DNA of 63,971 bases, counting the filler, from Folioceros fuciformis (taxonomy: Eukaryota), in the NCBI GenBank assembly GCA_049999805.1. It is 4 parts of 4 records of this genome, joined end to end, with 100 filler letters (N's around TTAATTAATTAA, not from the genome) between each part and the next. Parts side by side here need not be neighbours in the genome. Positions count along the whole stretch, not along the records: positions 59,738 to 63,971 come from JBNGIO010006306.1; 3 more parts are not named here. One strand, 5' to 3'. Below the pieces are notes generated by a model. That model made no database searches, was not told the origin of the DNA, and saw only the letters and a list, made by a program, of their open reading frames with translations. Made by a program: the position numbers and the translations under genes. Shown here piece after piece: positions 32,751 through 63,971 of the stretch. Each line of letters opens with the position of its first letter. Within the stretch, counting starts at the first letter, position 1.

Positions 32751-33087
32751 CTACGGGGTTGGGCATATGAGCGCAGCCATACATACTTATCATGTACATA
32801 AAGTACATATTTGTTGCGTTAGAGACCCGCGAACAGTCACAGCCGACGGGGAACGTGCTGGTGGAAAGCGGCTATTGGCAGGTTGAGAGAATGCGTCTCA
32901 GGAAGCGAGACGTGCGGCCGAGGCGACAGCCTACATGGGCTTTCTTTTTGCTGCGCGGGAAAACGAAGACTCTGTGGTGGAAGGCGTAGCAGAAGCATGG
33001 AGTTTCTTTGAATGTTGGCGAAGTCGGAAATGATGTCGTGAAGGAGATTGTGGAGTGCATTGTTTTGCTCCTCCACCTAGAACGAGG

Positions 33088-42130: not shown

Positions 42131-43410
42131 GCGAGCATTTGAGATATTCTCTAAAGATTTGGCCAAAATGGAGCAAGCTGCTCGGTGGGTCAATCAAAAA
42201 GGCTTCGGGGTTATTTATGCTCGAATCAGTCCGTGGAGCTCCTCTGCCTCACGGATGGAAAGTAGTTGTGGCGTCTGAGTACTCGCCCACCTGAAAGGGA
42301 GCACTCAGACCATGTGCATGCTCGCCGAAATGGCATGGGCCTAACTCGACCTTGGGCGTTTTTCTTCATGGGCCTAACTCGACCGTGGGCTTTTTTTTTT
42401 TTCCTGGGTCTCTCTTTCAAAATGATCTGTCTCGGTCACAGTGAGGATACACATTGAAACCGGGGCCCAGGTCAGGAAGCTTTTGCTTTGGCTGCGACTA
42501 CACCATAGTGGCCTTTGGATTCTGCCCCAAGCGGGCTACGCTGGCAAAAATGTCTTCCGGCCGAAACACTAGGAGCAGTGTTTGGAGGAGCCATTGTTCG
42601 TGGGTCTGGACCACACTGCTGCAGCTACACACCTCGTACAGTTTTGTGTCTCCTTTATGACCACAGGTACAATTACGGATTCTCTTTTTAACGGGGCTAA
42701 ATCTTGGGCACTAGAGCTTCATCGTAATCCTCGCCTGTTCAACTTGCGGGACATCGAATCTGAGGTACAGATTGCAACATTTATGTTTTGCCGTAATCCT
42801 AAGGAAAGCCCGGACGCACTCCGGAACTGACGGGGACTCTTGGATGTGGGGTCTTGTTTTACACGGAAAAGCAATTTGAACAAAGAGTTTTAAGTGTCCC
42901 TACGTCAATTGAATTAAAGCCACGTATGGTGTCATGTGTCAGTCTTGCTGCTTGCAACGTTCGTCTCTCGAAACGAGAAGAACATCGCAATGCGGAATTG
43001 TCGGTGAGTCCGGACATCTTCTTTTATTTGGTCGATTACTAATAGATTCACTCAAAGGGAAGGAAAAACGTGCCTTATGGCGTCCTCAAGCAGCCTGACC
43101 GCGTAGTCTCCAAAGAGCCAGGAACTGGAATCCCACACAGGAAGGAAGGACGTAAGCCGCCTCGTCGCCTGTCGATAAGGAAGACTTTGTCATGATAAGT
43201 ACTGTATTGGGAAAATTATGTGTTTTTGTCTTATATTTAAGATTCCATTTGTTCTCAGAGCGATACAAATTCTCGTTGGATTCAAATCCTTTGGGTTGGG
43301 TTGAATTGGTTTGGGGCTCATCGGAGCCAGTCCGCATGGGGTGGTGATGCACAGTCCATTGTCGGAATCATCTTCCGCAGCTTCCGACTTCCGAGAGTGG
43401 TCCCTGAACG

Positions 43411-46400
43411 ATGGCCACGGTATGGCAACCGGACCCGTTGTGGACCCAACAAAATGGGGTGTTTATGGGAATGATACGAGGAGCTCCCGCGCAATTCATC
43501 TTCGGGAGTAAATCACTGCCAAACAAAGCCTCCAGCTGCAGCAGTGTAAGGAGCTCAGCACTTCCACTTGCGAGAAATTGTGCGGGTGGAGACGGTTTTC
43601 CCAACGATGACGTTTGCCAGGAGCAGGAGAACTTGTGGCAACAATTCTTTCTCGACCCTACTATGTGGTGGGACAACAGACGAGACAAGAAGAGCTTGAG
43701 GTCGCCTGACTTCCGGCGCAAGCGATCCGGCGAGGTCCTGTGGTTAAACAACATGTTTAAGCCAGCCTGGGTTGATGAGCAGCTCGTTTCCTTGGATATG
43801 CAGATGGGTCGTGCTGCCTCTCCTCCCAACGCGAGCAATTGGGATAATCCTGAATCTGGGAGGCGTGTGGAATCGGAAATGGGCTCCAGCTGCAGGAATG
43901 CAAGGAGCCCAACACTTCCAATTCCGGGGAACTGGGTGAGTGGGGACGGGATTTCCAACGATGGCCGCCGCCAGGAGCAGGGGCTCCTGTTGCAACAATT
44001 TTTTCAGGATTCTAGCATGTTGTTCGACAACAGGCGAGATAAAACGAGATCCCAGTTGCCGGAATTCCGGCGTAAGAGGTCCGGGGAGGTCCTGTGGTTA
44101 AACAGCATGTACAAGCGAACTTGGGTTGATGAGGAGCTCGATTCCTTGGATATGCGGATGGGTCATGGTTCCTCTCCTTCCAAGTCGAGCTCTGTGGATA
44201 AGCCTGAACCGGGAAGTCGTGCAAGATCAGAAATGGGTGTCATAACAGCTGCAACCGTGAGCATGCTATGTGAGCAGGGGAAGCTTTCTGAGGCCGTTGG
44301 AGCCCTGGAGTCTCTGGCGCAGGCAGACTCTGCTATTTCCCAGTCTCTGTTTTACACTGTGCTCAAGCTTTGCACAGCTAAGAAGGATTTGGTTGTGGGG
44401 CGACGAGTTCATGACCTCACTGTCAAAAGTGGGTATGAGTCTAGTGCATACTTGGGAAACCACATCTTGCGCATGTATGCATTTGGAGGTAGGCTGCAGG
44501 AGGCCATGGATGTGTTCACCAGGGTCGGCAAACCAAATATCTTCATGTGGGTTTCCATAATCTCGGCACATGCTAAGCACGGGAAACCTAAGGAGGCCAT
44601 ACAACTCTACCATGAGATGCGCAGGTCTGGAGTGAAGGCGAATGGCCACGTCTTTGTAGCTGCCCTCCAGGCTTGTGCAATTGCTGCTGACTTGGAATCC
44701 GGCAGAAAAGTGCACTGTGATGTGTTGCACAGTGGCACTTCTACTGACTTGTTTGTTGGCAATTCTCTGGTGGACATGTATGCAAAATGTGGTGAACTGA
44801 AAGATGCATTCCAGGTTTTTGAAAGCATGGCCGAAAAGGACGTGGTAACATGGACGGCGCTGATATCTGGGTACGTAAAGTGTGGTGAACTGAAAGATGC
44901 ACGCCAGGTTTTTGACAGTATGAGCACGAAGAATGTAGTGACATGGACTACGCTGATAGGTGGGTATGCCGAGCAAGGGCTCGGACATGAATCGCTTGTC
45001 CTGTATGGACAAATGGAGCAGGAGGGCCTTATTTTGGCGGACTCTGTCACCTTTGCTTGCCTTCTGAAGGCCTGCGCAAGCACTGGTGCCTTACACAAGG
45101 GCAGGCAGCTGCACTCACAGATTGTTGAGCGAGGACTTTTGGATAATGTTCTGTTGGGCAACTGCCTCGTGGACATGTATGCGAAATGTGGAGAACTGGA
45201 AGATGCACGCCAGGTTTTTGATAGTTTAGCAACAAAGGATGTGGTCACATGGAATGCCCTGATAGCTGGGTATGCGCAGCAAGGACTTGGCCAAGAGGCA
45301 CTAGTTGTGTATGGGGAAATGGAGCAGGATGGCCTGATTTTCGCAAACCATGTTACTTTTGCTTGCCTTCTGAAGGCCTGTGCAAGCAGTGGCGCTTTAC
45401 AAAAGGGCAGGCAGCTGCACTTAAAGATAGTTGAAAGAGGACTACTGGATAATGTGTTGGTGGGGACCTGCCTAGTGGACATGTATGCAAAGTGTGGTGA
45501 ACTGAAATGTGCACGCCGGGTTTTTGACAGCATGAACACGAAGAATGTAGTCACATGGAATGCCTTAATATCTGGATATGGTACTTCTGATGATGGTCAG
45601 GGAGCAATAGCTTGTTTTGAGGAGATGTGTGTTGCCGGTATTCAGCCTGATGGTGCTACTTTTACTTGCCTTTTAGTAGCGTGCAGTCATGAGGGACTAG
45701 TCCATGAGGGTCGCAAGTACTTTGATTCCATGGCTGAAAACCATGGCATCAAACCTACTGTCGAGCATTATACCTGCATGATTGATCTTCTTGGGCGTGC
45801 AGGCCATTTGGATGAGGCGGAGAAGATGCTATTGTCATGCAAGGGCCATAGTTATGTTGTGGGATTGACGTCGTTGTTGAATGCCTGTAGAAGTCATGGG
45901 GATATAAAGAGGGCAATGTGGTGTTTCGAAAGCATCGTAAGGCTGGATCCCCGGGAGGCGCCCGCCTATGTGCTCATGGCGAATGCCTACGCTGATGCAG
46001 GTAGGTGGACTGATGTGGACAGGATTGAAGTACAGAGAAGGGTGGCAGGAGCTACCAAAAAACCTGCTGTGGCGAGCATTGAGGTGAACAAGCAGGTGCA
46101 CCGATTTTTGGTGGGAGAAAAGAGAGGGGATATTATGCTCAAGGTGGACAGCACGAATGCCCGCGTGAAGCACGAAGGGGGCCACGTACCTCACACAAAG
46201 TTAGTGTTGAAGCCACTATGTGAGAAGGAGAAGGAGGATGTGCTTTGTGGGCATGCTGAGAAGCTAGCGCTGGCGTTTGGTCTTTTGAACAGTCCCAGTG
46301 GAACACCTCTGGTGGTTACCAAGAATCTACGCATGTGCAGTGACTGCCACAATTCGACGGAGATCATATCAAGGCTTGAACAGAGAGACATTGTTGTAAG

Positions 46401-46461
46401 GGATGGGTACCGTGTCCATCGATTCACAGCTGGTTCTTGCAGTTGTAAGGGTCGACCTTGA
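43411..46461 (+). CDS. PLS-class PPR-DYW:KP ('GRP'-type) putative U-to-C RNA editing factor with two N-terminal OSB-like PDF motifs
   Basis: Single ORF of 1016 aa; N-terminal WQQFFLDPTMWWDNRRDK...PDFRRKRSGEVLWL twice; P/L/S/SS array; KKPAVASIEV, HAEKLA, KNLRMCSDCH and terminal CSCKGRP. Confidence 0.93.
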   Translation: MATVWQPDPLWTQQNGVFMGMIRGAPAQFIFGSKSLPNKASSCSSVRSSALPLARNCAGGDGFPNDDVCQEQENLWQQFFLDPTMWWDNRRDKKSLRSPDFRRKRSGEVLWLNNMFKPAWVDEQLVSLDMQMGRAASPPNASNWDNPESGRRVESEMGSSCRNARSPTLPIPGNWVSGDGISNDGRRQEQGLLLQQFFQDSSMLFDNRRDKTRSQLPEFRRKRSGEVLWLNSMYKRTWVDEELDSLDMRMGHGSSPSKSSSVDKPEPGSRARSEMGVITAATVSMLCEQGKLSEAVGALESLAQADSAISQSLFYTVLKLCTAKKDLVVGRRVHDLTVKSGYESSAYLGNHILRMYAFGGRLQEAMDVFTRVGKPNIFMWVSIISAHAKHGKPKEAIQLYHEMRRSGVKANGHVFVAALQACAIAADLESGRKVHCDVLHSGTSTDLFVGNSLVDMYAKCGELKDAFQVFESMAEKDVVTWTALISGYVKCGELKDARQVFDSMSTKNVVTWTTLIGGYAEQGLGHESLVLYGQMEQEGLILADSVTFACLLKACASTGALHKGRQLHSQIVERGLLDNVLLGNCLVDMYAKCGELEDARQVFDSLATKDVVTWNALIAGYAQQGLGQEALVVYGEMEQDGLIFANHVTFACLLKACASSGALQKGRQLHLKIVERGLLDNVLVGTCLVDMYAKCGELKCARRVFDSMNTKNVVTWNALISGYGTSDDGQGAIACFEEMCVAGIQPDGATFTCLLVACSHEGLVHEGRKYFDSMAENHGIKPTVEHYTCMIDLLGRAGHLDEAEKMLLSCKGHSYVVGLTSLLNACRSHGDIKRAMWCFESIVRLDPREAPAYVLMANAYADAGRWTDVDRIEVQRRVAGATKKPAVASIEVNKQVHRFLVGEKRGDIMLKVDSTNARVKHEGGHVPHTKLVLKPLCEKEKEDVLCGHAEKLALAFGLLNSPSGTPLVVTKNLRMCSDCHNSTEIISRLEQRDIVVRDGYRVHRFTAGSCSCKGRP

Positions 46462-50673: not shown

Positions 50674-53564
50674 TGCTGAATAGTAGTCAAGACAGCTTGA
50701 CATCTTGTGCGTGTAGCGAGAGATAGATATCAAAAGAATCCAGCATGATAATTAATGAGAGAATAATTAATAATGAAAAGGTAAAGGTATTTATAGCCAA
50801 GCCCTAAACTAATTAGGTCATCTATTCATGCATACTCCTAGGTTACCCATAACAACGGGTTATTTTCAACACTCCCACATAACCTAGGCAGTGTGCATCT
50901 TCCTTTAGATGAGAGTCGATCGCCGCCCTCTCCCGTTATCGCACACGCTCGTTAGCCAGAGCTCGCACTGTTACGCGCTGGGAGCTGAAGCGACGACTGT
51001 GACACCATGTCGCAGCTACTTGCGATTGTGGCCACCATCCTCGCCTCCTTCTGTTTGCTCATACTGTGGCAGCAGCAGAAAATGACTACAAGAAGCGGTG
51101 CGCGCTACAGGCCTGAAAGGTATGGAGAGGGTGCTGTCCCAAGGAAGAAACGTGCGGTGAAGAAACAGGAAGAGGTTGCAGCTGGTGCTAGAAACACAAG
51201 GGCTTTGCAGTGGAGACCTTTAAATCTACAGCACTACATCAGTAGCTGCGGCTGGGAAGTGGAGGTGGCAGCCAGCGTGACTGTGCGCAAGGTGCAGGAA
51301 ACAGGCAGGGCAAATTCAGCTGTGAAGGAAAAAAGAGATAGTGGCTGAACTCCTGGACCCGCCTAACCCAGACCCCCTCAGAGGGATGAAGGTTAGATGG
51401 CGCGAGGCAATCAGGACCCCACTGCCTGCTGATGAAAACGTGAAGGAAGAAACAAAAGTAGAAAGGATTGATGCAGCAGACGGGAGACAGCTCCCACAGA
51501 AGACAACAAACCCCTAAAGTGCCATGATTAGGTAAACACTGTGACGATTCATCCATGGCTGTGATGGTGATAGACAGAAGCAAGTCTGACCAACTAATCT
51601 GTATGTATGTGCTGCAGAACACATGGCAGGACTGATGAGAGGACAGCTTTAGAGCTGGGTCTCACAGCTAAAATTATGATAAACTATAAAACTAGGGGAC
51701 TGAGGTCCCCATCCCCCCAATTCCAAACAGGTCAGACTGTCACCACTGTTTACCTTACTCCTGTTCTTGGTAACAAATAGCTGAAGTCTCGTATACCCAG
51801 GGATTCCATGTGATGCGAATGCTTGAGCTTGGGTAGTGACTTTGTCATGATATCTGCAGTATTCTCCGCTGTTGGTATATATTTTACTTGTATGACTCCT
51901 CGTGCCACTGCATCTCTAACATAATGATGTTTGATCTCAATGTGTTTTGTACGAGCATGAAAACGCGGGTTGGCAACAAGGGCAATCGCAGAGTTGTTAT
52001 CACAATACACAGTAGTAGGACTGGCTTGCTCATGATGAAGATCCTTGAGGTATGATCTTGCCCATTCAGCCTCCTTAGCAGAGTCTGAAAGTGATACATA
52101 TTCTGCTTCGGTTGAAGATAAAGCAATAGCTGATTGCTTCTTGCAGGACCAGGTAACGGCCCCACCAACTAGCAGAAAACAATATGTGGACAAACTCTTA
52201 CGGGAGTCGGGATCAGAAGCCCAATCTGCATCTGTGTAAGCTTCAAGTGTTAGACCAGAAGGAAGACCAGCTTGGTAGAAGATACCGTAATTCATGGTCC
52301 CCTTCAGGTAACGATAGATTCTTTTCACTGCTGCCCAATGAATTCGTCCTGGCTTCTCCAGAAATTGGGATACACAGCTGACTGAGAATGCGATATCAAG
52401 TCTTGTCCAATTTGATATGAAGATGAGGCAACCGACAGCGTGCCTATAGGGAATCTTCTCCATATCAGCAATCTCCTCTGGAGTGGAAGCACATTGATCA
52501 GATGTTAACTTAACACCGACTGAACCAGGGGTGGACACAGGCCTGGCTTCATCAAGCTGAAAACGCTTCAAAATCTCAAATAAGTATTTCTTTTGATGAA
52601 TGACTATGAGGCCTTTTTCTCTGTTCCTTAATACTTGAACACCCAGGCAGAATTTAAGTGCTCCCACATCTTTCATTTCAAATTTATCCCTTAAAAGGTC
52701 TTTAACCTTATTCAAGATATGGGTATCTGTACAGGCAAAGATGCAGTCGTCTACATACACTGCAAGAATGCAAAAGGCCGAGCCGTCGACGAGATAATAT
52801 ACAGATGAGTCTGCTGAACTTTGTGTAAAACCTAGAGCTTTGAGTTCAGCGTCAAGTTTCTCATTCCACAGCATGGCACTTTGCTTAAGCCCATACAGGG
52901 CTTTGAGTAGCCTCAGTACCTTGTTAGGAAAACGTTTATCCACATAACCCTGGGGCTGCTCCATGTAAATTTCCTCCTTAATCTCCCCATGTAGAAAAGC
53001 AATACACACATCCATTTGATGCAATTCCAAGTTCAGTTCCGCAGATATGGCTAACAGCATCCTAATAGATTATGCTCATACGACAGGGGAAAAAGTTTCC
53101 TGGTAATCCAGGCCAGGAACTTGAGAAAATCCACGAGCGCAGAGCCTGGCCTTATAACGGGCAATCTCACCTTCAGCATTAAGTTTGGTCTTGAAGACCC
53201 ATTTACAAGTGACAGCCTTCCTACCAGGTGGCAAGTCTGTAAGTTCCCATGTTTTATTTTTAAGGATAGACTGGTATTCCTCCTCTACTGCAGCTTGCCA
53301 CTTATCAGCATCAGGACCAGCATAGGCTTCATCCATGGAAACAGGATCCAGCAAAATGGGAGTGCTGCCAGGAATGGCAGCATGAGTAGAAGGCCGGAAG
53401 TCATAAGAAGCATAAGGGGGTTCTGACCATTGGGCACGAGGTAGGCGGGCACGAGGAGGATTGCGTCTAGGAACGACAACAGCAGGAAGATCCTCCTCTT
53501 GATCTGGTGTGTCTAGATCAGGGTAGGGTAGATCAGCAGGTTCAGGGAAAGGGTCTGCGACAGG
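50674..53564 (-). mobile_element. Ty1/Copia retrotransposon A (RT-RNase H, 3' region, PPT and 3' LTR); 5' part cut by the gap
   Basis: YKARLCARGFSQ, LHQMDV..AFLHG, LYGLKQS, YVDD, YTDADWA, SSTEAEY and RTKHI; two in-frame stops at ~53070-53078; minus-strand gtgggag followed by a TGTTGA...TCAGCA LTR (50871-50674) containing TATAAATA. Confidence 0.9.
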
Positions 53565-53664
53565 NNNNNNNNNNNNNNNNNNNNNNNNNNNNNNNNNNNN
53601 NNNNNNNNTTAATTAATTAANNNNNNNNNNNNNNNNNNNNNNNNNNNNNNNNNNNNNNNNNNNN

Positions 53665-56600
53665 CGTTTCAGCCGCATTCTCATGAAGCGTGTCAAGGTG
53701 CAGCCCTGCAAAGAGTTTCCAGGGCATATGGTCAGCTTTTACAGTAGGTGTTACGTCCCTCCTTGTGATTCCTTGTGTGTGTTGGCTGCAATTCAGCAGT
53801 CCTATTCATGCCTTGCTCCCACTGCTTCTAAAAACGTTGTTACTGTTGCCATTTGCAGGGTCTGAGATGAGACTTCGTGAGGAAGTACGCCTTGTCTCCC
53901 CTGAGAGGATATCATATGAAGAAAGGAGAAAGCATAACAGCCCACGAACTGACGAGAGCTTCACCAGCAGCAGTGAGCTAGAGAAAGTCTTCAGTGACTC
54001 AGACAGTGATGAATACAACTCGCCAAAGACACCTGATTCACTTCCAGAAGAAAGCAACTATTCCAGCTCTCGTGGCAGCTGGGATTACTAGGCATAGATT
54101 TCTGTTCTTCAGACTTTGTTGGTTTGCAGGAAGTCTTCGGACTTCCCTAAACCAAGACCTTTAAGATGTTTTGTGTGCAAGTCTCTCCCCAGTGCTTTGG
54201 TGAGTATGTCTGCAGGGTTGTCGGCTGTCGGCACATATTCCAACACTATCTTTCCTGCTGATACTTGTTCACGTATAAAATGGTGTTCTACTTCAACGTG
54301 TTTTGTCCTTGAATGAAATACTGGGTTTTTAGCGAGAGCCATTGAGCCCTGATTGTTAGTCCTTACACTTGTGCATGTAGGAAGGTCCAGTCCCATTTCC
54401 TTGAACAACAGCTTAAGCCAAATAACCTCCTTTGCTGCTGCTGTTAGGACTCTATACTCGGCTTCTGTGCTCGAGGTGGCTACTGTGGGTTGCTTCTTGC
54501 TGCTCCAACATATTGGCCCTCCTGCGAAGCTTACTACATAGCCTGACACAGACCTTCTGGTATCAACATCACCAGCATAGTCAGAGTCTGTGAATACTGC
54601 TAGGTCTAGAGCTTCAGGACTGTATTGGTATTTAAGTCCTACATCATAGGTGCCCTTTAAGTATCTAAACACCCTTTTTAAGCACTGCCAATGCTCTTGC
54701 CCTGGGTTCTCGAGATACTGGGACAAGGAGCTCGTGGCAAAAGAGATGTCGGGCCTCGTAGTGTTTGAAGAATAAATTAATTTACCCACTCATTTTCTGT
54801 ACGGAATGTTAGCCATAGCTTCCTTCTCTGGTTGTGTCTCAGGGCACATGTCTCGACTGAGTTTGAGCCCAGTAGGTAGTGGTGTAGAGGCGGGCTTCGC
54901 ATCCTTTAAGCCCATCTGTTCAGCACTGTCAAGTAAGTATCTAGGCTGGGTAAGGGTTATAACCCTCTTGTCCTTGTTCCTTTGAATATGAACACCTAGG
55001 CAGCTCTGCAGAGGACCTAAATTGGTCATCTCAAATTTCTCTGCCAACAACAGATTGAGCTTTGTGATGTATGCTCCATTGTTACAGGCTATAATTAGGT
55101 CATCTACATACACAGCTAGATAACATACTCTATCTCCTTTCCTGTATACGTAGAGGCTCCCATCTGCCTTACACTTGACAAAGCCTAAAGCTAGAAGCTC
55201 CTCATCAAGGGCTTCGTTCCACTTTAGTGCTGACTGTTTGAGGCCATAGAAAGTTTTTATAAGTCGCACGACATGGTCCTCTTTCCCTTTCACTTCATAT
55301 CCAGGCGGCTGCTGCATATAGATCTCGGTGTCAAGCTTTCCATGTAAAAAGGCTGTCTTGACATCGAACATCTGCAGCTCGTAATCCTTGTGTGCTGCAA
55401 TGGCACAGATAGTACAAAAGGTGGCCATTTTTACAACAGGTGCGTATGTTTCAAAGTAGTCAAGTCCTGGTACTTGAGTAAAGCATCGTGCAACAAGTCG
55501 AGCTTTATATCGGTCAAAGGTTCCATCAGCTTTAACCTTGAGCTTGAAAACCCATTTACAAGATACCATCTTTCGGCCTGGAGGTAACTTGGCCAATTCC
55601 CAAGTCCCATTTTTGATGAGTGAGTCGTACTCAGATTGAATTGCCTTTTTTCATTCTGCAGAATCAGGCCTCCTAAGAGCTTCCTCGTATGACTGTGGTT
55701 CTATAGGGTCAAGCATTGTGGAGTGTGCTTCAGCTGCCCTGAAGTCATGGGACTGGTAGTAGTCTGGAGGACGTCGAAACGCTGTGGATAACGGCGTTCA
55801 GGTTGTGTTGCAGGTTTAGGCTGCTCACGCTGGGGTTCAATGTTTGCTGGATAAATAGGTGCAGCATCGTCAGGTTCTGCTGCTCGGTCTTCCTCCTGTG
55901 CTAAAACAGGATCAGGAGGCAAGGGATCATGAGGAGGTGGCTCCTGTATAGGATCAGCAATATTGTCCAAAACTGGTTCAGACTTAGGGTCAGGGGGAAG
56001 TTCAGGTTCAGATTCAGGTTCTGACTCTGACTGATCCTCATTATCCCCACCTGCAGGAGCAACGTTCTCAGGAAGGTCCTCAAAGTAAGAAACGTCAAGT
56101 TCAAGACGTTCCCAACTGTCATCAGCACGAGAAGCATCTAGGGCAGCTCCCACTGGCCAGAAGCACTGTTCGTCAAAGGTAACACTTCGAGAATAGGTGA
56201 CCTGTTTTGTGTTCACATTATATAGCTTATACGCCTTGATGCCCTCTGTGTAGCCTAACATCATCAACTTCTGTGCCTTGTTAAACAGCTTCTTACGCTT
56301 CTCACGAGGAACAAAAGCGTAGGCAACACAGCCAAAAGTCCTAAGATGCTGGATCTTTGGCTTGTGTCCATAAATGGCCTCACAAGGAGTCATCCCGTGA
56401 ACACCATGTGTAGGGAGTCTGTTCCTCAAGTAAACAGCAGTGGTGAGGGCTTCTGCCCAGTAAGAAAAAGGGAGGTGAGCATGATTCAGCAAGGAAGATG
56501 TAATCTCCTGCAGTGTTAGATTCATATGCTCAGCCACCCCGTTCTGTTGGGGTGTGTAAACCACTGTTAGCTGTCTCCCTATGCCTTCATTAGTGCAAAA

Positions 56601-59600
56601 GGCCTGAAACTCATGTGAGGTAAACTCCCCACCATTGTCTGAACGCAATGTTTTAAGCTGCTTCCCTGTCTAGTGTTCTGCAAATTTCAGGTAAGCTTTG
56701 AACTGTTCAAAACATTCACTCTTGGATTTGAGAATATAGGCAGTGACCAAACGTGTCGTGTCATCTGTAAATGTTAGGAAGTATCTTCCACCACCCAACG
56801 AAGGCTTGGACAAGGGGCCACACAGGTCTGTGTGCACCAATTCCAGGACTTCTGAAGCCCTATGTGGAGCCTTATTGCAAAAGGCTGCTTGGTGGCGTTT
56901 GGCAAGAACACAAGGTTCACACAAAGGTAGAGGCACTAACTTGCCTATGGGGCCATCAGCATACAAATCACTAGTAGCTAGTTGCTGTAATTTGCTGCTG
57001 TGTGGGTGACCCAATCTAGCATGCCACAACTTTGATTTTTCTATCTGTTGTGCAGAGGCTAGGGAGTCCTGATGTGTAAGGTGAGACTGCACTGCCCCAC
57101 CCTTGGTGTGCAAGCAAAACAGGTCATGTTCTGAGGACCCGTAGGCTAGGACTCTGCTAGGATTAAAGGCATCTATCACCTTACACTCTGTGTTTGGAAA
57201 CAGAATGTGGCTATTATTGTCTATGTTAAGACGCCTGACAGAGATGAGGTTGCGTGTCATCTCAGGGACATAATACACATCTATGAGTGACAGCATGACT
57301 CCAGATGGCACAGGCAACTCAACAGTCCCTATACTTGGAGAGACAAGTGATCTGTTATCACCTAGGTAGACATACTGGTCCTTGGCTGACCTGTATGTTG
57401 TGAAAGCATTTCTGTTGAAGCACATGTGAGCAGTGGCCCCCGTATCAAGGTACCACTCTGTATACTGTCCGGCTGTTCTTTTGGCTGACAGACATGTGGG
57501 TGAGGAGATAGGGTTGATGTACCCCTCTGTCCCAACCATAAGCGTTGATGGCGATGGTTGCTTCTTGACCACAACGTTGGTCTTAGCACTTGCCTCCTTG
57601 CGAGGTAAGCCTGCTTGCTTTTTCCTGCAGTCCCTCTCCCAGTGACTAGGGATTTTGCACCAGTTGCAAGTCCCTGACCTTTTATTTTTCTTGCCTGCAG
57701 ATTGTGATGAGTGGCCTCCTTGTGAGCTACCACCTCGGGATGAACCAGATCCGCCGCCTCTAGAGGATGGTCTTGCACCACCTCGTCCACGGTTGGATGT
57801 AAACAGCGCGTGCTGCTTGCCAGCACCCCTGCCTGGTCCACCTCTGGTCGATTCCTCTTCCAGGAGTGACCCAACAAGTTCTGCAAACGTTAATTCTGGT
57901 ACTTTGAGACCGGCTGACTTAGCCAGCTTGGCTACCTGTAACTGGGATGCATGGATTGATGTCACAAAGTGTGACCAGGAAGGAGGTAGTGAGAGTAACA
58001 GGTAAAGTGTTAGCATCTCATCCTTGATTGTTTCGCCAGTAGCTTGTTCTAGCTTGGAGACTAAGGTTCTGAAGATCATGACATGCCTTTCAACAGATTC
58101 TCCTTCACGCATCTTACACTGCTGAAGGTTATTGAGGGCTGATAGTTGATTGGCAGAATTCTTCCCTGCATACAACTCTTCCAGGCGATCCCAGATCTCT
58201 GCAGCAGTCTCACAGCCTGATGTTTAATGCATCATGTCGGCTGTGAGTCCACTTCTAATGAGGTACATAGCAGCATCATTCCTTTGCTGACGTGCCTCCT
58301 TTTGCAGGACTGTTTCTCCTTCTTCTGCAGTATCTAACCCTTTTGTTGTCTTCCAGAGTTTTCTGCTGTGGAGTGCGCCTTTCATGCGCATGACCCGAAT
58401 GTCATTTTGGCGGCCGTCGACCCTGTCTTTCTCCTTAAAACTTTCCCCACCTCCAACAACTGATGAAGAGGCTGTATCCCCCATTGTTGGAGGTCTGGAG
58501 GAATGATAAGGCTACTGGCTTGTATACAAAGGCAGCAATCACGCCAAGAGGGCAGCTAGCATGTTGACAGGTCTGATTACCTCATGCAAGCTGGCTGCCT
58601 GTTATGCTTCTTTCTCTGCTATCTGCTGTTTCCTTAACATGAGCCTATTGTATTCATAGGTTGAGCATGAAGGACAAGAATTGGGATCATCAAAGCGTTG
58701 ACTACTGTTAGTACACTTCACAGATCTGACAGCAAATGTGCGGAACTCTAGATTTTTCAAAAGTTCTGGCTTCAAAAAGACATGCAATTTATAGTCCAAA
58801 TGATAGGTCTGCTCTCTCAAATCATGTAAGTCTACACTCACACTAGCCACGCTCTTATTAAGATTTACAAATCGCTTGTCTACAAACAGGGAATGTGACT
58901 CCACTCTGGAAATGATTTGTGTGATTGTGGCTTGTGGTGTAGGCTGTGTTGTGAGGAAACCGTTAGGGTTCCTGTGTACATCTAAAGCAGCCCTGGGGCG
59001 CAAGTTCTGTTGATCAGCACCAAAAATCTGCTCATGAGGACCAACAATTAGGTTTTGGTGATCAGGATAGAGAGTGGAAACCAGCAGATTGTAGGCCTCG
59101 CGTAGACGGGTGCTGTGCGCAGGTCTGTCCTGGTTTCTGGAAATCCACTCTTGTGTATGTTGGTGAAGTCGTTCTGCTATATTCCTGTCATTAAGCTGTC
59201 CTCTGACTGAGCGATTGCGCTGGACCCGCTCAGCAGGCCGTGGCTGCCAGATCTGGCCTTCATTTTGTGCCATTTCTGATGGCTAAAACTCTGATTGTAG
59301 GGATGCGTACAGAATGCATCCTTATTTTCTTTAAATTTGTAATTGCCTCTAAATGCAAACTGCCAGATCTGACAAGTGTCCTAGCGAACCTATTCCAGAA
59401 TTGCTAGAATAGCAATCTGGCATAGATGCGCTAGAATGCTCTCCAGATCTGCAGATGCAATTATAAAACAGGCAAATTAAATTATAAAGAAAGGCAATCA
59501 GAATTTAAGTTCTTGATTATTTTTGGGCTATCTTTTAAAGAACATTTCTAAAAAGATAAGAGCCAAAAACATATGTTTGTGCACATCCAAACATGCACAA

Positions 59601-59637
59601 TTTGATGCGCATTCTCTAGAATGCAATCCACGCTACA
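53665..59637 (-). mobile_element. Ty1/Copia retrotransposon B (gag-PR-INT-RT-RH, 58484-54109, several stops and a frameshift); LTRs not visible (flanked by gaps)
   Basis: CNWCKIPSHWERDC zinc knuckle, WYLDTGATAHM protease, LWHARLGH, VHTDLCGP / RSDNGGE / PQQNGVAE integrase, YVDD RT and SSTEAEY RNase H; stops at ~58224, 56670, 55652 and 54790. Confidence 0.92.
58602..59273 (-). CDS. Extra 223-aa ORF of unknown function upstream of Copia B gag
   Basis: Intact ATG-to-stop ORF on the element's sense strand ending ~120 bp before the gag ATG; heptad-like segment and C-x12-CxxC; no family recognised. Confidence 0.5.
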   Translation of the reverse strand: MAQNEGQIWQPRPAERVQRNRSVRGQLNDRNIAERLHQHTQEWISRNQDRPAHSTRLREAYNLLVSTLYPDHQNLIVGPHEQIFGADQQNLRPRAALDVHRNPNGFLTTQPTPQATITQIISRVESHSLFVDKRFVNLNKSVASVSVDLHDLREQTYHLDYKLHVFLKPELLKNLEFRTFAVRSVKCTNSSQRFDDPNSCPSCSTYEYNRLMLRKQQIAEKEA

Positions 59638-59737
59638 NNNNNNNNNNNNNNNNNNNNNNNNNNNNNNNNNNNNNNNNNNNNTTAATTAATTAANNNNNNN
59701 NNNNNNNNNNNNNNNNNNNNNNNNNNNNNNNNNNNNN

Positions 59738-62700
59738 AGAATAGAGCAGAGGATTTTGTTCTCTGACTCTGATGATGATGAGGCATTTGGCATGATGGCG
59801 GTGCGCAAGAAAAAGAAAAAGGTTGTTGCTAACTTTGGTGAAGGCGTCACTGCGAAGGGAGTGCCGGAACGGGAATCGACCAAGATGCCGGAGAGTTTCC
59901 GGCAGGTCGAGGGAAACTCCACGACACAGAAGGTGTCAAGATCAGGTCGAGACGTTGAGGCGTTGCTGGACAAGGCCATGGAGGCGCCTGCAGTAAGTCT
60001 TGTGGATCTGGGAGTGAAAGGCAACAACTTCAAAAACATCATGCGAGAATGGCTTAGAAAGGAGCTTGAATCCGCAGGATCTCTCCCTAGTATGGCCAGT
60101 TTGTGTGGCGAGCATCTGATGCCAGAGGCGCGAGGTGGAGGAGGTGTTGCCATGATTGATAACACGGGACGGCACGTGACCTTTGATGGCTATGCTCCAG
60201 TAAACGTACTTGTAGACACAGGAGCGGATCCGGTACTGCTGGGAGCACGGGTGCAGGAGGCACTAAAGCTGTACGGACACAAGCTCGTTCCGAGCGACGT
60301 GAACATCACCACCTATGCAGGTACCAAGGAACAGGTACTGGGAATGACGAGGAGGCCCGTGAAGATTGAATTGAAGCCTGGCACGAAGGATGCCAGCATC
60401 GTTGAAGTGAGATGTTTGGTCACCAGTGCGAAGACATATGATGTCTTGCTGGGGTCGGACGGAACTCACCGTCCTGCCATGGGGGTTGATCCCTTGCACG
60501 CTGAAGCTTTCTACAGACCATTCTGGTGGAGAGGAGATTTCACGCATGTTGCACGAATTCCTCTAAGGATGAATAGGAGTGGTGGCAAGAGCAGGACGAG
60601 GATGACAGGCAGCACCATGATTGCCCACAGTGCTCAGAGTGAACATCGACATGAGATGTGGGAGGAAACGTAGGAGTTATCCTCTCTGGAGATGCCAAAG
60701 CCAAGAGAGCAGAAGGGTGTGCTTAAGGTGGTGCGCTCAGAATATTTGGATCAAGCGAGGGTTCGAGAGAACCAGCGAAGGAAGGAGGATCGACCGTGGA
60801 ATCTCACAGACACATGTCCTGAGAGGTCGATCCCAGGTATGGGGCCTGCCAAGTCGGGAGATCGACGCATCGACGATGCTCTAGTACGATGGAAGGTGGG
60901 CGCTCAAGGCATCCATTTGTTGGAGCTCTGCTCAGGAATCAGCAGTGGCCTGGAAGCGGTGTTGCAGTGTGGCGTCAAGATACGGCAATATACCTGCGTG
61001 GAGAAGGATGAGAAGATTCGAGCTGTCGCTAGGGGTCGAATCCTCAGGTTCTGCAAACAGTATCCAACACTACTGAGCGAGGAAGCAGTTCGAGGCTGTC
61101 AGAGCAGGCTGCCCACAGACGTGAACCTGGTTGGGAAGCGGCAGCTACAAGCCTTGTCAAGCCCAGTGGACATGCTGATCGCGGGATGGGAATGCAAGAC
61201 ATTTTCGACAGCAGGCAGAGGCAACAGTGAAGGCGTTTCGTTGGCTGCTGAGCTCGCACGAATCACGCGAGAAGTCCAGATTGCGAATCCACGATGTTGG
61301 TACATTCTGGAGAATGTGTGTGCAGCCATGGACAAACGTCCAGCTGTTAGGGCCCTGTATGAAGATCTTCGGGACCAGTTGGCAGAAAAGCCTATGTTGG
61401 CCAGGCCGAATTTTGATCACCCTTTCACTCTGTACACAGACTGGAGCACTGCGGGGATTGGAGCAGTGTTGTCACAACATGATGCAGATGGTGTTGAGCG
61501 AGTGATAGCTTATGCAAGCCGATCTAACAACTCCGCTGAAGTGAACTACTTCTCATATGAGGGAGAGTGTCTTGCTGCGGTATGGGCAGTTCTGCATTTC
61601 AGGGTCTATCTGTATGGAAGGCGTTTTCAACTGGTCACAGATCACCAGCCACTTCATTGGCTGATGACCAACATGAAGTTAAGTGGTAAGCTAGCCAGAT
61701 GGGCGCTGCTACTATCTGAGTACGATATGGAGATCGTGCACAGGGCAGGCAAGGTACATCACAATGCAGATGGGCTAAGCAGAAATCCGCTGGACAGTGA
61801 CAAGGATGTCACAGGAGCTCGACAGGACGAGGGGCACGTAGATGGTGCACCCAGCAGCTTCATGGCACTCATGGCCAGGACAGGTGAGCATGAAGAAGGA
61901 CATGTGTTGACAGAGTCCGTCAGGGATGTTTGGAGACATCCTCAAGCCCTACAGTTGCTGAAGGAAGGCACAGTGCCTGGAATGACTGAAGCAGGCTTGG
62001 CTAAACTCAGAAGGCGCGTGGCTAGATACTCATGGAAAAATGGTGAGCTGCTACTGTTAGAAGGAGAACTCGTGAGGAAAGTACCAAGTCATGAGGAAAG
62101 AGTGGGCATAGTGACCAAGGTGCACGAAACCCTTGGCCACTTTGGTGTGAAGAGGACACACCACATGCTGAAAAGCACGTATTTCTGGTCAGGGATGTAT
62201 GCAGATGTCGAGAAGGTGGTTGCTAAGTGTGCTGCATGTGATGCAGTCAAAGCCCGATTTAACACCCAGGATGTGGTGTTGCACTCCCTACCAATCAGGG
62301 GGCTATTCTTTAGATGGTCGGTTGACCTTATGCCAGAGCTTCCCCTCACAAAGCAAGGTAACCGACATTGCATGGTCATGATTGAGCATTTCTCTAAGTG
62401 GGTTGAAGTAGCGTTCTTGCCACAGAGAACTTCACACTACACTAGCAGAGCGTTTCTGCAGTGTGTGCTCAGCCGATTTGGGAGCTGCGCGGAAGTGCTC
62501 ACAGACCAGGGTAACGAGTTTCGAGGTGAATTCCAGACCTTGCTCGACAGGAGTCTCATTGATCACAGGAGGACATCGAGGGATCATCCACAGGCCGATG
62601 GCCTGGCAGAAAGGCTAGTGCAGACCTTCAAGGATGCACTAAGGAAATACTGCATTACTGTGGAGCCCAAGTGTTGGGATGAATTGCTCCCTTACATCGT

Positions 62701-63971
62701 GTTTAGGGTACAGGGTCAGTGTGCAGGCAGCTCTTGGAAGTTTCAGTCCATACTTTTTGTTATTCGGACGCAACGCAGTGTTGCCGAATGTGGTGAAGGA
62801 CACCTACTCCATCCCTGTTGACTGGAGCAAAGATGCAAATGTGTGCTTGGCACAGGTTCAAGCCAGAGCAGAAGTATTTCAAAGAATTCTTCCCATGGCT
62901 ATGGATAATTTGGCTGTGGCCCAGCATCGGGACCAGCTGAGGTATGCTTATACGCGGGGGGGCTCGTGGAAGCCCAAAGGCCGCAAGTTTGCATCTGGAG
63001 ATTACGTGTACTTGCAGCGCAGGCCTGCAAGCACGTTAGATGTCAGCACAGGAAGGCTTATCCTGCGAGTTGTCCAGGTTGGTGAGCAAGGTGTGGTTGA
63101 ACTTGAAGGAAGAGATGGCAGAAGGTGCAAGGAACACATGAAGCACTTGGCTCCATGCCATTTGCCTGATCTGGATACACGAACTGTGCCTCAGACCTGG
63201 ACGCCACCAGCAGATTTGCCCTGTGAGGAGTGTGGACACACAACTGACGACGAATTCATGTTGCTATGTGACAGGTGTAACCGTGGTTACCATCTGTTTT
63301 GCCTCAAACCGGCACTGGACAGTGTTCCAGAAGAAGAATGGCTATGTGAGCACTGTAATGTGCTAAGTGTGAACGTGGCTCTTACAGAAGGTGATACTGA
63401 GGTTGTCTTAAATTCACACACGTTGGAAGCTGAAACAGCAGTTGACAGTCTCTCTGGATTCAAGCTGCCCAGTGAGATTACGATTACACAGGAGGCACAA
63501 GAAGACCCATCAGATGATGAGGATCTAGAAGATGACGCCATTCCTCCTCCTCGGTCAGAACCACCGTCAGTGTTGGACAAGCTACGTTCTCGCTGGTGGG
63601 GACGTTGGTAAGTAGTTGTTTGTTTTCCTAGGCCAAGTTGGTCTAAACAATTTTGTGGGAAACCAGGTGGCTAGGCCTCCAAGTTTCCCAGGGGGGCTGT
63701 TGACGGGTCCCGGGTCTGCCTCTCTTAGGCAAACCTAGTCTCTTTTTGTAGCCTTGCTCTTGGCCATAGGCCAAGGACAAATTAAGGCTAGGATTGTTGC
63801 TCCTGGGCCGAAGGCCAAGGAGATCGCAGGCAGGCGGAAGCTTAGTGACCTAGCTTGGTAGACAGGCTAGGTAGGCATGCAGCTATGCGGCTGCTGCGCG
63901 ACAGCTGTCATGCTGTTGCTGTATGGGAAACAGAGCACCTAAGACTCTATGACTGGATACTGACTAGAGCA
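59738..63971 (+). mobile_element. Ty3/Gypsy-type retrotransposon: protease - partial C5 DNA methyltransferase - RNase H - integrase - PHD finger; no RT; PPT and probable start of the 3' LTR
   Basis: VLVDTGA protease; LELCSGISSG / CVEKD / AGWECKTFS / ILENV methyltransferase motifs; LYTDWS..GIGAVL, YEGECLA and TDHQPL RNase H; H-x4-H...CxxC plus SVDL / TDQG / GLAER integrase after RNase H (Gypsy order); C4HC3 PHD. One in-frame stop (60671) and a frameshift (~62700); AGGGGGG then TGTTGA at 63698. Confidence 0.9.

What the first reader, a model, noticed from the sequence alone, without database searches (positions are those of the whole stretch)
60911..61380. Gypsy retrotransposon carrying its own C5-cytosine DNA methyltransferase domain in a land-plant genome
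Seen: between the protease and RNase H, the polyprotein has, in canonical order, motif I (LLELCSGISSG), II (CVEKD), III (PTDVNLV), IV (MLIAGWECKTFSTAG, catalytic Cys kept but with E-C instead of P-C) and VI (YILENV). Established: retrotransposon-borne DNMTs were reported in dinoflagellates and the streptophyte alga Klebsormidium, and are not a standard feature of land-plant Gypsy lineages. Inference: this may be an embryophyte member of the streptophyte DNMT-Gypsy lineage that methylates its own cDNA or insertion site, i.e. a self-methylating mobile system.
Basis: partly seen in the sequence, partly recalled or inferred. Interest (0 to 1): 0.88.

Follow-up and report, generated by a model that had tools for sequence, protein, structure and literature searches.

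The report
Truncated DNMT3-carrying Gypsy retrotransposon copy
This is a broken copy of a jumping gene whose family carries its own DNA-methylating enzyme, a kind known from green algae; here it sits in what looks like a land-plant assembly, but this copy keeps only the front half of the enzyme and has no reverse transcriptase.

Summary
The quoted motifs are real. Window 60911-61380 translates without a stop to the stated peptide. It is the N-terminal half (motifs I-VI) of a Dnmt3-type C5 cytosine methyltransferase:
- Pfam PF00145 is only marginal on the fragment, 22.7 bits against a cut-off of 22.
- An exhaustive phmmer search finds 465 relatives, best E 4.5e-25.
- The family profile hits DNMT3A at 2.8e-24.
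- The AlphaFold model's best fold matches are DNMT3A/3B.

Glu-Cys in place of Pro-Cys is a family trait, seen as ECQ in 99 of 149 rows.

The copy is defective:
- The domain stops just after motif VI and is fused to the RNase H lead-in.
- Motifs VIII-X and the whole reverse transcriptase are missing.
- It has a stop codon and a frameshift that other copies lack.

Contigs from public runs show other copies in which the methyltransferase continues past the break.

Relatives carry the domain in gag-PR-DNMT-RT-RH-INT polyproteins. Named ones come from Closterium and chlorophytes.

Land-plant residence is indirect. The element lies on its own small contig, and the host genes lie on other contigs of the window.

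Verdict: new member of a known kind, of moderate interest.

The parts
59741..60670 (+). 5'-truncated polyprotein ORF (end of gag region plus aspartyl protease, protease domain about 60176-60460). The contig begins at 59738, just after an N44-TTAATTAATTAA-N44 linker.
   Evidence: ORF. Asp_protease_2 E 9e-7 at aa 146-240. 38% identity over 271 aa to the gag-PR-DNMT protein P0005. Linkers.
60671..60673 (+). In-frame stop codon separating the protease ORF from the DNMT ORF. Other copies do not share it.
   Evidence: At 60671 the contigs of all three covering runs (X1, X3, X4) read another letter, which gives a sense codon.
60896..61373 (+). N-terminal half of a Dnmt3-type C5 cytosine methyltransferase domain (motifs I, II, III, IV, VI). 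Catalytic Cys codon at 61193-61195, ENV at 61310-61318.
   Evidence: (PF00145, 22.7 bits).
61362..61373 (+). Break point: 12 bases shared by the DNMT context and the RT/RNase H context. The DNMT homology ends here and the RT-connection/RNase H homology begins.
   Evidence: tables 7 and 8: one X1 contig fits only from 61362 onward and another only up to 61373. Alignment end. tblastn map.
61374..61886 (+). Tail of the RT connection plus the RNase H domain (Pfam match about 61409-61723). No RT polymerase domain precedes it.
   Evidence: RT_RNaseH E 3.4e-36 at aa 246-350. 58% identity to the RNase H of P0093. Lower depth than its neighbours in X1.
61887..62704 (+). Pre-integrase linker, integrase H2C2 zinc finger (about 62090-62254) and integrase core (about 62312-62587).
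   Evidence: Integrase_H2C2 E 3.8e-16 and rve E 7.5e-11. tblastn to P0093 residues 1653-2099.
62703..62706 (+). Frameshift inside the integrase C-terminal region. Covering runs show a one-base length difference from the window here.
   Evidence: Frame 1 changes to frame 2 in tblastn. table 4: one letter left out at 62704/62705 in X1, X3 and X5.
62706..63611 (+). Integrase C-terminal region with a PHD finger (about 63222-63356) and the ORF stop.
   Evidence: PHD E 2.8e-11 at aa 194-238 of ORF 62643-63611. Relatives have the same INT-PHD layout.
63690..63971 (+). Polypurine-like tract (63690-63696), then the probable start of the 3' LTR at about 63697, running off the window end.
   Evidence: Sequence. 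X1 depth rises from about 350-620 to 1500-2487 and a loose end sits at 63697. The LTR call is an inference, because no 5' LTR is on the contig.

Best explanation
The segment is the front half (motifs I-VI) of a Dnmt3-type cytosine-5 DNA methyltransferase domain. It is encoded in the polyprotein of a Ty3/Gypsy-type LTR retrotransposon family whose complete members read gag - protease - DNMT - RT - RNase H - integrase; this copy, like other relatives, also carries a PHD finger after the integrase.

The window copy is a dead, non-autonomous derivative. Everything from just after DNMT motif VI to the end of the RT is missing, about 480-520 residues of a full-length relative. The join lies at a 12-base stretch shared by the two contexts. 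The copy also carries a stop codon and a frameshift that other copies lack. It can make neither an active methyltransferase nor a reverse transcriptase, so at best it could be moved in trans.

Shown:
- the domain identity;
- the truncation;
- the family architecture in relatives;
- the existence of other copies in the same organism's runs in which the DNMT continues and in which the RNase H is preceded by RT-connection sequence.

Inferred:
- In intact members the DNMT travels with the polyprotein and methylates the new cDNA or insertion de novo, as proposed for the Symbiodinium and Klebsormidium elements.
- The PHD finger tethers integration to a histone mark, as the chromodomain does in chromoviruses.
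- The element resides in a land-plant nuclear genome.
For: Domain identity:
-, as in the observation check.
- 465 phmmer relatives at E<=1e-3, best 4.5e-25 at 42% identity.
- All 30 ESM-Atlas feature hits carry PF00145, score 0.93.
- A profile of 22 family members hits DNMT3A at 2.8e-24, plant DRM at 2.8e-13 and M.HhaI at 2.2e-10.
- The AlphaFold2 model has pLDDT 84.7 and pTM 0.80. Its top Foldseek PDB matches are all DNMT3A/3B, E 9.3e-6, TM 0.58.

Truncation:
- In alignment A1 the window row ends before the relatives' motif VIII block (HRxRxxW), the SYAFR block, ERExAMGY and LGxxMDxN.
- tblastn of the full-length relatives P0093/P0380 maps residues 786-1169 to 60146-61501 and residues 1653-2099 to 61379-62704. 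Nothing maps for the DNMT C-half plus RT in any frame.
- No RVT_1 match at E<=1 in the three ORFs.

Family architecture:
- P0380 reads CCHC 530-547, PR 796-888, DNMT 978-1226, RT 1421-1575, RH 1638-1766, INT 1895-2061.
- Closterium P0156/P0024 read gag-PR-DNMT-RT.
- The window falls in a 58-row clade of 149 rows (support 99) that holds all 7 Closterium rows and 23 of the 26 rows my pattern labels mark as PR-upstream or RT-downstream.

Other copies:
- Depth in X1 is about 133-620 over 60448-63713, against 0-6.5 over 59738-60305.
- One X1 contig follows the window to 61373 and then reads 30 letters that I translated by hand, in frame, as AWFGNELIMD. This matches the relatives' stretch just before motif VIII (compare P0002).
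- Another X1 contig reads, before 61362, letters that I translated by hand as WNQNQELAWQ, a typical RT-connection lead-in to RNase H.
- The stop and the frameshift are not shared by the covering runs.

Host:
- Other contigs of the window carry PLS-class PPR-E and PPR-E-DYW genes (Atlas taxa Streptophyta).
- They also carry an Mpp10 gene. Every named hit among the 120 listed is a land plant; the best named one is Marchantia at 38%.
- Runs labelled with one organism from three studies hold the element.
Against: - The DNMT/RNase H join is not independently verified. None of the 30 contig pieces listed bridges 61373/61374 (128 more pieces were not shown), so it could be an assembly join inside a high-copy repeat.
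- The element's contig (59738 to the window end) carries no host gene, and no other copy or LTR fragment lies elsewhere in the window. An algal contaminant is therefore not excluded, and every named relative is a green alga.
- Pfam support on the fragment alone is marginal, and phmmer against PDB sequences found nothing significant (best E 1.4).
- Within its family the window's domain is odd. It is the only ECK among 149 rows. It has Ser where most relatives have the second motif I Gly. It lacks three residues and the Arg of the GxRSxLF block. The high-depth X1 contig over 60950-61217 shares the ECK reading. The organism's whole family may therefore have a weakened or inactive enzyme.
- CpG observed/expected is 0.56 in the element against 0.59-0.67 in the host contigs, so there is no special deamination footprint.
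Confidence: 0.7

Rival explanations
1. Assembly chimera. The copies in the organism are complete (PR-DNMT-RT-RH-INT), and the window's DNMT(N-half)-RNase H join was made by the assembler while threading a high-copy repeat.
For: - The region is high-copy: depth is in the hundreds in X1.
- Contigs of the runs break exactly at 61362/61373 and at 61887, and none of the 30 listed pieces bridges the join.
- The window is a chain of small contigs with linkers.
- Depth over the RNase H segment (76-317) is lower than over the DNMT (380-595) and the integrase (430-620).
Against: - The shared stretch is only 12 bases, too short for the usual k-mer or overlap joins (my own knowledge of assemblers, not tested).
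- X1 holds 88% of the sampled words of the stretch.
- Deletion derivatives are common in LTR families, and Closterium gene models P0054/P0381 show a similar DNMT(N-half)-RNase H layout with a different break point.
Confidence: 0.3
2. Contaminant. The contig comes from a green alga living on or with the sampled plant, not from the land-plant nuclear genome.
For: - All named relatives are green algae: Closterium, Cymbomonas, Monoraphidium, Chlamydomonas eustigma.
- The contig has no host gene, and the family has no other trace in the other 59.6 kb of the window.
- Organism B's run from the same study holds near-identical pieces at very low depth (2.5-4.7), which could be carry-over.
Against: - Runs labelled with the same organism from three separate studies (2017, 2023, 2025) hold it at 99% identity or more. 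One is a very small data set (5.2 million letters of contigs) in which mostly high-copy sequence would assemble.
- Depth in X1 is in the hundreds.
- GC and CpG content resemble the host contigs.
- I could not lay a host gene for a depth yardstick, because the read laying cap is one call.
Confidence: 0.2
3. The short DNMT(N-half)-RNase H form is itself a conserved, functional layout, for example a SAM- or DNA-binding pseudo-enzyme module, and not an accident.
For: - A comparable layout occurs in two Closterium gene models (P0054, P0381).
- Differences between the window and the run contigs in the DNMT part are mostly synonymous: 2 of the 3 sites shared by several runs.
Against: - The break points differ between the window and Closterium, and the Closterium proteins are gene models that may splice over sequence.
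- A Rossmann-type MTase fold cut after motif VI lacks half of its core (established knowledge of C5-MTase structure).
- Other copies in the same organism continue the domain.
- The copy has a stop and a frameshift.
Confidence: 0.05
4. One-off capture of a fragment of the host's own DNMT3 gene by an ordinary Gypsy element.
For: Bryophytes keep a DNMT3 gene (PMC10952607, passages read), and the domain is Dnmt3-like.
Against: - The closest relatives are all retroelement polyproteins with the same PR-DNMT adjacency.
- The family-specific AGWECQ motif is shared.
- The PR-to-DNMT stretch is collinear with P0005 and P0093.
Confidence: 0.03

Closest known systems
KnitGypsy-Dnmt3 of Klebsormidium nitens (de Mendoza et al. 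2018, PMC5890265; passages read)
   Same: A Dnmt3-type, non-rearranged DNMT domain inside the Pol polyprotein of an intron-less Gypsy-type LTR element of a streptophyte. Multi-copy.
   Different: - The host here looks like a land plant.
- This copy holds only motifs I-VI and no RT.
- Direct kinship is untested, because no K. nitens sequence was reachable and the figure and supplements were not seen.
- The DIRS-like repeat layout reported for the Klebsormidium element cannot be checked, because the 5' end is off the contig.
- The passages I searched do not mention a PHD finger (0 occurrences).
Unnamed Closterium sp. NIES-53/54/65 gene models (e.g. CAI7855100.1, CAI5973665.1, CAI7909129.1)
   Same: Same DNMT clade and the same gag-PR-DNMT-RT order. 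The AGWECQ motif is shared.
   Different: Only 28-34% identity in the DNMT part. They are algal. My literature searches found no description of them as a DNMT-retrotransposon family.
RT-RH-DNMT-INT-PHD polyproteins of chlorophytes and metagenomes (e.g. P0028, P0044, P0070, Monoraphidium P0236)
   Same: Homologous Dnmt3-like domain with the same E/P-C-Q motif. Integrase followed by a PHD finger, as in the window.
   Different: The DNMT sits between RNase H and integrase, not between protease and RT. They form the other major DNMT clade, 91 of 149 rows.
SymbioDIRS-Dnmt3 and SymbioLINE-Dnmt of Symbiodinium (PMC5890265)
   Same: Retrotransposon-borne C5 DNMTs. De novo CG methylation by retrotransposon DNMTs is reported in the abstract.
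   Different: DIRS (tyrosine recombinase) and LINE backbones in dinoflagellates, and an independent acquisition according to the paper.
Cellular DNMT3A/3B and plant DRM/DNMT3
   Same: Best profile and fold matches. Motif order I-X in relatives and an HRxRxxW-type motif VIII.
   Different: Glu instead of Pro before the catalytic Cys. No PWWP/ADD modules. Embedded in a retroelement polyprotein.
Chromoviruses (Gypsy elements with an integrase C-terminal chromodomain; described in the introduction of bioRxiv 10.64898/2026.05.21.726589, read)
   Same: A chromatin-reader-type module at the integrase C-terminus.
   Different: Here the module is a PHD finger. Its target and any role in integration are inferred, not tested.

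Membership tests
C5 cytosine DNA methyltransferase domain (Pfam PF00145) | Score at or above Pfam's gathering cut-off (22 bits) | tested here: inconclusive
   22.7 bits on the 156-aa fragment, but 19.0 bits on the whole 715-aa ORF. Of 25 scanned relatives, 23 match PF00145 at E<=0.01, up to 54 bits.
C5 cytosine DNA methyltransferase domain (Pfam PF00145) | Motif IV catalytic Cys (Pro-Cys) and motif VI Glu-Asn-Val | tested here: met
   Cys (61193-61195) and ENV (61310-61318) are present and align with invariant family columns C108, E151 and N152. Pro is Glu, as in 99 of 149 family rows. The Gln after Cys is Lys only in the window.
C5 cytosine DNA methyltransferase domain (Pfam PF00145) | Motif I SAM-binding glycine loop (FxGxG) | tested here: inconclusive
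   The window reads L-C-S-G-I-S-S-G: the first Gly is kept and the second position is Ser. Relatives P0017/P0155 also vary at these loop positions (LCSGLCAT), while P0012/P0009 (LFSGIGS) keep the second Gly.
C5 cytosine DNA methyltransferase domain (Pfam PF00145) | C-terminal half: motif VIII (RxR), target-recognition region, motifs IX and X | tested here: not met
   Absent from the window copy. The alignment ends before them and no frame of the contig matches them. They are present in relatives and probably in other copies of the same organism (hand translation of one 30-letter loose end).
C5 cytosine DNA methyltransferase domain (Pfam PF00145) | MTase fold | tested here: met
   The model of residues 1-197 has pLDDT 84.7. 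The top 50 listed Foldseek PDB matches are all DNMT3A/3B entries, best E 9.3e-6, TM 0.58 normalised to the query. Only the N-terminal half of the fold is encoded.
Dnmt3 subfamily | Closer to DNMT3 than to other DNMT classes | tested here: met
   The family profile hits DNMT3A/3B/3C at 2.8e-24 to 3.8e-18, DRM at 2.8e-13 to 1e-9, M.HhaI at 2.2e-10 and DNMT2 at 1e-3. No DNMT1 chain appears at E<=1.
Streptophyte Gypsy-Dnmt3 lineage (KnitGypsy-Dnmt3) | DNMT3 domain inside the Pol ORF of a Gypsy-type element | tested here: met
   One frame runs from PR through DNMT, RNase H and integrase, apart from the private stop and the frameshift.
Streptophyte Gypsy-Dnmt3 lineage (KnitGypsy-Dnmt3) | Common descent with the Klebsormidium elements | not testable with these tools
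   No K. nitens sequence appeared among the named hits, and the supplements of PMC5890265 are closed.
Autonomous Ty3/Gypsy LTR retrotransposon | PR-RT-RH-INT polyprotein with an RT polymerase domain | tested here: not met
   No RVT_1 at E<=1 in the three ORFs. The RT residues of P0093/P0380/P0156/P0113 find nothing on the contig.
Autonomous Ty3/Gypsy LTR retrotransposon | Two LTRs, PBS and PPT | tested here: inconclusive
   A PPT-like AGGGGGG at 63690-63696, then a high-depth region from about 63697. The 5' LTR and PBS are off the contig, and no direct repeat pair was found.
Land-plant (embryophyte) genome element | Physical linkage to embryophyte genes | tested here: not met
   The contig 59738-63971 has no host gene, and no copy lies on the gene-bearing contigs. 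Indirect support only: PPR-E-DYW and Mpp10 on other contigs, and runs with the same organism label from three studies.

The most novel reading that the evidence does not exclude
A Dnmt3-carrying Gypsy lineage of the protease-DNMT-RT type, otherwise seen in the alga Closterium and in unnamed environmental sequences, is resident at high copy in an embryophyte genome and was recently active there. It would include members with a full methyltransferase and RT under purifying selection. That would make it the first land-plant retrotransposon family with its own de novo DNA methyltransferase. It could have been inherited from the streptophyte-algal ancestor or acquired horizontally. It uses an unusual Glu-Cys catalytic loop and an integrase-linked PHD finger.
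Probability: 0.4. Interest if true: 0.7.

Novelty: new member of a known kind. Interest (0 to 1): 0.5.

Why it matters
Retrotransposons that carry their own cytosine methyltransferase turn the usual host-silences-transposon picture around. So far they are documented in dinoflagellates and one streptophyte alga (PMC5890265).

If the family seen here really lives in a land plant, the question of what such an enzyme does becomes testable in a lineage with well-studied methylation pathways. The options are self-methylation of new copies, camouflage, or side effects on the host methylome.

The searches made for this finding also show that the Dnmt3-Gypsy family is much wider than the literature I could search suggests:
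- 465 representative clusters;
- two domain orders;
- members in Closterium and in chlorophytes;
- a family-wide Glu-Cys-Gln catalytic loop.

The window's own copy is a dead relic and does nothing of this itself.

Tried and rejected
- Whole-genome search of the window's own assembly: no genome is held. Copy census, full-length copies and flanks could not be obtained.
- phmmer of the fragment against PDB sequences: nothing significant. The best hit was tobacco DRM at E 1.4 over motif I.
- The search for homologous proteins with the 715-aa ORF, residues 40-240, near lengths: none of 1371 candidates scored E<=0.001. The exhaustive search and the alignment query succeeded instead.
- Earlier notes of this scan by place and by sequence: nothing.
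- Expression: no listed holder is on record as RNA. X3 is only guessed to be RNA, so nothing can be said about transcription.
- CpG depletion as a footprint of self-methylation: 0.56 for the element, against 0.59-0.67 for the host contigs and 0.37 for the neighbouring Copia. Uninformative.
- 'DNMT in a Copia element' (Closterium P0048/P0382): rejected. P0382 has Gypsy PR, DNMT, RVT_1 and RH with Copia SH3/RVT_2 in between, which looks like a nested insertion merged by a gene model.
- LTR pair or other long repeats on the contig: none.
- Other copies or solo LTRs elsewhere in the window: none.
- X3 contig of 1669 letters that joins 61373 to 61887 through 681 other letters. I could not read those letters, so I cannot tell whether it is a DNMT-complete, RT/RH-less derivative or a diverged RNase H version.
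- Literature searches for land-plant or Zygnematophyceae DNMT retrotransposons: no such report. These searches cover only the open library, and supplements are closed.
Full report
**What is at the coordinates.** Window 60911-61380 (+) translates to 156 residues without a stop.

The segment is part of a 715-codon open frame, 60674-62821. Pfam finds in that frame:
- RT_RNaseH (aa 246-350, E 3.4e-36);
- Integrase_H2C2 (aa 473-527, E 3.8e-16);
- rve (aa 547-638, E 7.5e-11).

The frame upstream (59741-60670) holds an aspartyl protease (E 9e-7). The frame downstream (62643-63611) holds a PHD finger (E 2.8e-11).

PF00145 itself is marginal. It scores 22.7 bits on the fragment against a cut-off of 22 (E 7.8e-5, profile positions 49-118 of 324), and 19.0 bits on the whole ORF. 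phmmer against PDB sequences gave nothing significant; the best was a tobacco DRM at E 1.4.

**Is it a methyltransferase domain?** Yes, by four further lines of evidence.
- phmmer of window 60800-61390 against 1.84 billion representatives gave 465 proteins at E<=1e-3, 107 at E<=1e-10 and none at E<=1e-30. The best was 4.5e-25 at 42% identity. Of the 25 relatives I scanned with Pfam, 23 match PF00145 at E<=0.01, up to 54 bits.
- All 30 ESM-Atlas feature hits belong to PF00145 clusters, score 0.93.
- A profile of 22 family members (alignment A1) hits DNMT3A at 2.8e-24, DNMT3B/3C at about 1e-22, plant DRM at 2.8e-13, M.HhaI at 2.2e-10 and DNMT2 at 1e-3. No DNMT1 chain appears at E<=1. The family is therefore Dnmt3-type.
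- An AlphaFold2 model of the fragment, built with a 43-row alignment, has pLDDT 84.7 and pTM 0.80. Its best Foldseek matches in the PDB are all DNMT3A/3B methyltransferase domains, E 9.3e-6, TM 0.58.

**The Glu-Cys loop.** Among 149 aligned family rows, motif IV reads ECQ in 99 and PCQ in 41. An earlier census of 157 proteins gave ECQ 63, PCQ 44 and no match 40.

The window is the only ECK. The high-depth X1 contig that covers 60950-61217 shows no difference there, so the Lys seems to be shared by this organism's copies.

Compared with its family the window also has two other oddities. It has Ser at the second glycine of motif I. It has a three-residue gap that removes the Arg of the GxRSxLF block.

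**What is missing.** Full family members continue after motif VI with these blocks:
- LDAAQxGSxAHRxRxxWxN (motif VIII);
- an SYAFR block;
- EPxAxERExAMGY (motif IX);
- RxxLGxxMDxN (motif X).

The window row stops before all of these. After ...ALYEDLR it runs straight into DQLAEKPMLARPNFDHPFTLYTDWS, the usual lead-in to a Gypsy RNase H.

tblastn of the full-length relatives P0093/P0380 against the contig gave two mapped blocks:
- residues 786-1169 map to 60146-61501;
- residues 1653-2099 map to 61379-62704.

P0380 reads CCHC 530-547, PR 796-888, DNMT 978-1226, RT 1421-1575, RH 1638-1766 and INT 1895-2061. The DNMT C-terminal half and the whole RT have no counterpart in any frame, and no RVT_1 match exists at E<=1.

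The frame also has a stop at 60671-60673 and shifts by one base near 62703. The copy can therefore make neither an active methyltransferase nor a reverse transcriptase.

**Other copies in public runs.** Six of the nine listed runs hold the stretch or part of it. Five of these are labelled with one coded organism (A), spread over three studies, and one is labelled organism B. I laid X1, X3, X4 and X5 on 59738-63971.

Depth in X1:

| Region | Depth |
|---|---|
| 59738-60305 | 0-6.5 |
| 60448-63713 | 133-617 |
| 63714-63971 | 1500-2487 |

This fits a high-copy element with an LTR that starts near 63697. There a polypurine-like AGGGGGG (63690-63696) is followed by CTG..., and an X1 contig has a loose end.

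The stop at 60671 is not shared by the three covering runs. All three runs that cover 62704/62705 differ there by one base in length. Both lesions are therefore private to the window copy, or to its assembly.

Of the three differences in the DNMT part that several runs share, two are synonymous.

**The break point.**
- One X1 contig follows the window up to 61373 and then diverges. In frame, its next 30 letters read AWFGNELIMD by my hand translation. This matches the relatives' stretch just before motif VIII (for example ...EWLGEELLLDAAQ in P0002).
- Another X1 contig (742 letters, depth 76) fits only from 61362 onward. The 30 letters before that read WNQNQELAWQ by hand translation, a typical RT-connection sequence.
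- The organism therefore also has copies in which the DNMT continues, and copies in which the RNase H follows RT sequence. The two contexts share the 12 bases 61362-61373.
- This pattern suggests a microhomology-mediated deletion or a template switch.
- None of the 30 contig pieces listed bridges the join (128 more were not shown), so an assembly join is not excluded.
- An X3 contig joins 61373 to 61887 through 681 unread letters. It may be a second kind of derivative.
- Depth over the RNase H segment (76-317) is lower than over the DNMT (380-595) and the integrase (430-620).

**The family.** Pfam scans show two domain orders.
- Order A is gag-PR-DNMT-RT-RH-INT: P0093/P0380, Closterium P0156/P0024, P0017, P0022, P0025, P0211.
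- Order B is RT-RH-DNMT-INT-PHD: P0028, P0031, P0044, P0070.

Trees of the DNMT N-terminal half (149 rows, 165 columns) split into a 58-row and a 91-row set. Support is 99 on the 58-row set in both trees (FastTree local SH-like; IQ-TREE SH-aLRT) and 99 on the 91-row set in the drawn FastTree.

The 58-row set holds the window, all 7 Closterium rows, and 23 of the 26 rows that my crude pattern labels mark as protease-upstream or RT-downstream. The other set holds the order-B rows and Monoraphidium.

Inside its set the window sits on a long branch (0.81-0.89) without a resolved sister.

Named relatives:
- Closterium sp. NIES-53/54/65;
- Cymbomonas tetramitiformis, Monoraphidium neglectum and Chlamydomonas eustigma;
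- one metagenome bin labelled Candidatus Obscuribacterales.

**Is the host a land plant?** The window is a chain of contigs joined by N44-TTAATTAATTAA-N44 linkers.

Other contigs carry:
- a 1017-aa PPR-E-DYW gene and a 1106-aa PPR-E gene. Atlas clusters for the DYW part are Streptophyta in nine of the ten listed rows; one lower-ranked row is labelled Rotifera;
- an Mpp10 gene. Every named hit among the 120 listed is a land plant; the best named ones are Marchantia at 38%, then Sphagnum and Riccia.

PLS-class DYW proteins are a land-plant hallmark by established knowledge.

The element has its own contig without any host gene, and no other copy or LTR piece lies elsewhere in the window. Support for residence comes from two points. 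Runs labelled with the same organism hold it in three studies. It is high-copy, being seen even in a run with only 5.2 million letters of contigs.

I put contamination at about 0.2.

**How it works.** For intact members of the family I infer what de Mendoza et al. proposed. The DNMT is made as part of the polyprotein and methylates the retrotranscribed copy de novo. Their abstract reports de novo CG methylation by retrotransposon DNMTs (PMC5890265).

I also infer that the PHD finger after the integrase tethers integration to a histone state, as the chromodomain does in chromoviruses. That role is described in the introduction of bioRxiv 10.64898/2026.05.21.726589.

None of this was tested here. 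CpG content gives no footprint. For the window copy the answer is simpler: it is an inactive relic.

**Comparison and novelty.** The closest described system is KnitGypsy-Dnmt3 of Klebsormidium, also called the streptophyte 'Gypsy-DNMT3' in the 2026 preprint. Membership in that lineage could not be tested for lack of sequences.

My full-text searches found no report of a DNMT-carrying retrotransposon in a land plant or in Zygnematophyceae (passages read). The supplements of these papers, which may list more hosts, are closed.

I therefore rate this a new member of a known kind. It carries two leads worth following: the possible land-plant host, and the unexpectedly wide, two-architecture Dnmt3-Gypsy family with a Glu-Cys-Gln loop.

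Noticed in passing
window 28548-28647, 53565-53664, 59638-59737 (also N10 at 16821-16830): The window is not one piece of chromosome. It is a chain of contigs joined by N44-TTAATTAATTAA-N44 linkers, so neighbours across a linker are not physically linked.
   Followed up: yes
window 53665-59637, minus strand: A Copia-type element on its own contig: gag/zinc knuckle, protease, integrase and RVT_2-like ORFs at 54790-58223, read from the translations. Its CpG observed/expected is 0.37, the lowest in the window. A further RVT_2 ORF lies at 51750-53069.
   Followed up: partly
window 12274-15594 and 43408-46461 (+): Two long intron-less PLS-class PPR genes, one with E motif and one with E motif plus DYW deaminase. 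Two such genes in 64 kb suggests a genome with a very large RNA-editing-factor family.
   Followed up: partly
window 40313-42130, 18452-19420, 33034-34452 (+): Housekeeping-type genes appear as single long ORFs without introns: Mpp10 (605 aa), Saf4/Yju2 (322 aa) and Ulp1 protease (472 aa). Mpp10 is only about 38-41% identical to the best hits. This is unusual for a land plant and is unexplained.
   Followed up: no
proteins P0028, P0031, P0044, P0070, P0113 and many: A large clade (91 of 149 rows) places the Dnmt3-like domain between RNase H and integrase, with a PHD finger after the integrase. It occurs in chlorophytes and in many metagenome contigs.
   Followed up: partly
proteins P0048 and P0382 (Closterium gene models): These gene models merge a Copia element (SH3_retrovirus, RVT_2) into a DNMT-Gypsy polyprotein. 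This is probably a nested insertion read through by the gene predictor, not a DNMT-bearing Copia.
   Followed up: partly
window 61584-61725 and 62294-62435, run X4 (organism B): A second, differently labelled organism of the same study has high-depth contigs (depth 86-153) that are 90-95% like the RNase H and integrase parts. Over the DNMT part it has only low-depth near-identical pieces. Whether its own family carries a DNMT is open.
   Followed up: no
window 63419-63602: An X3 contig skips 182 bases here, in the region after the PHD finger, so the copies differ by an internal length variant (table 5).
   Followed up: no
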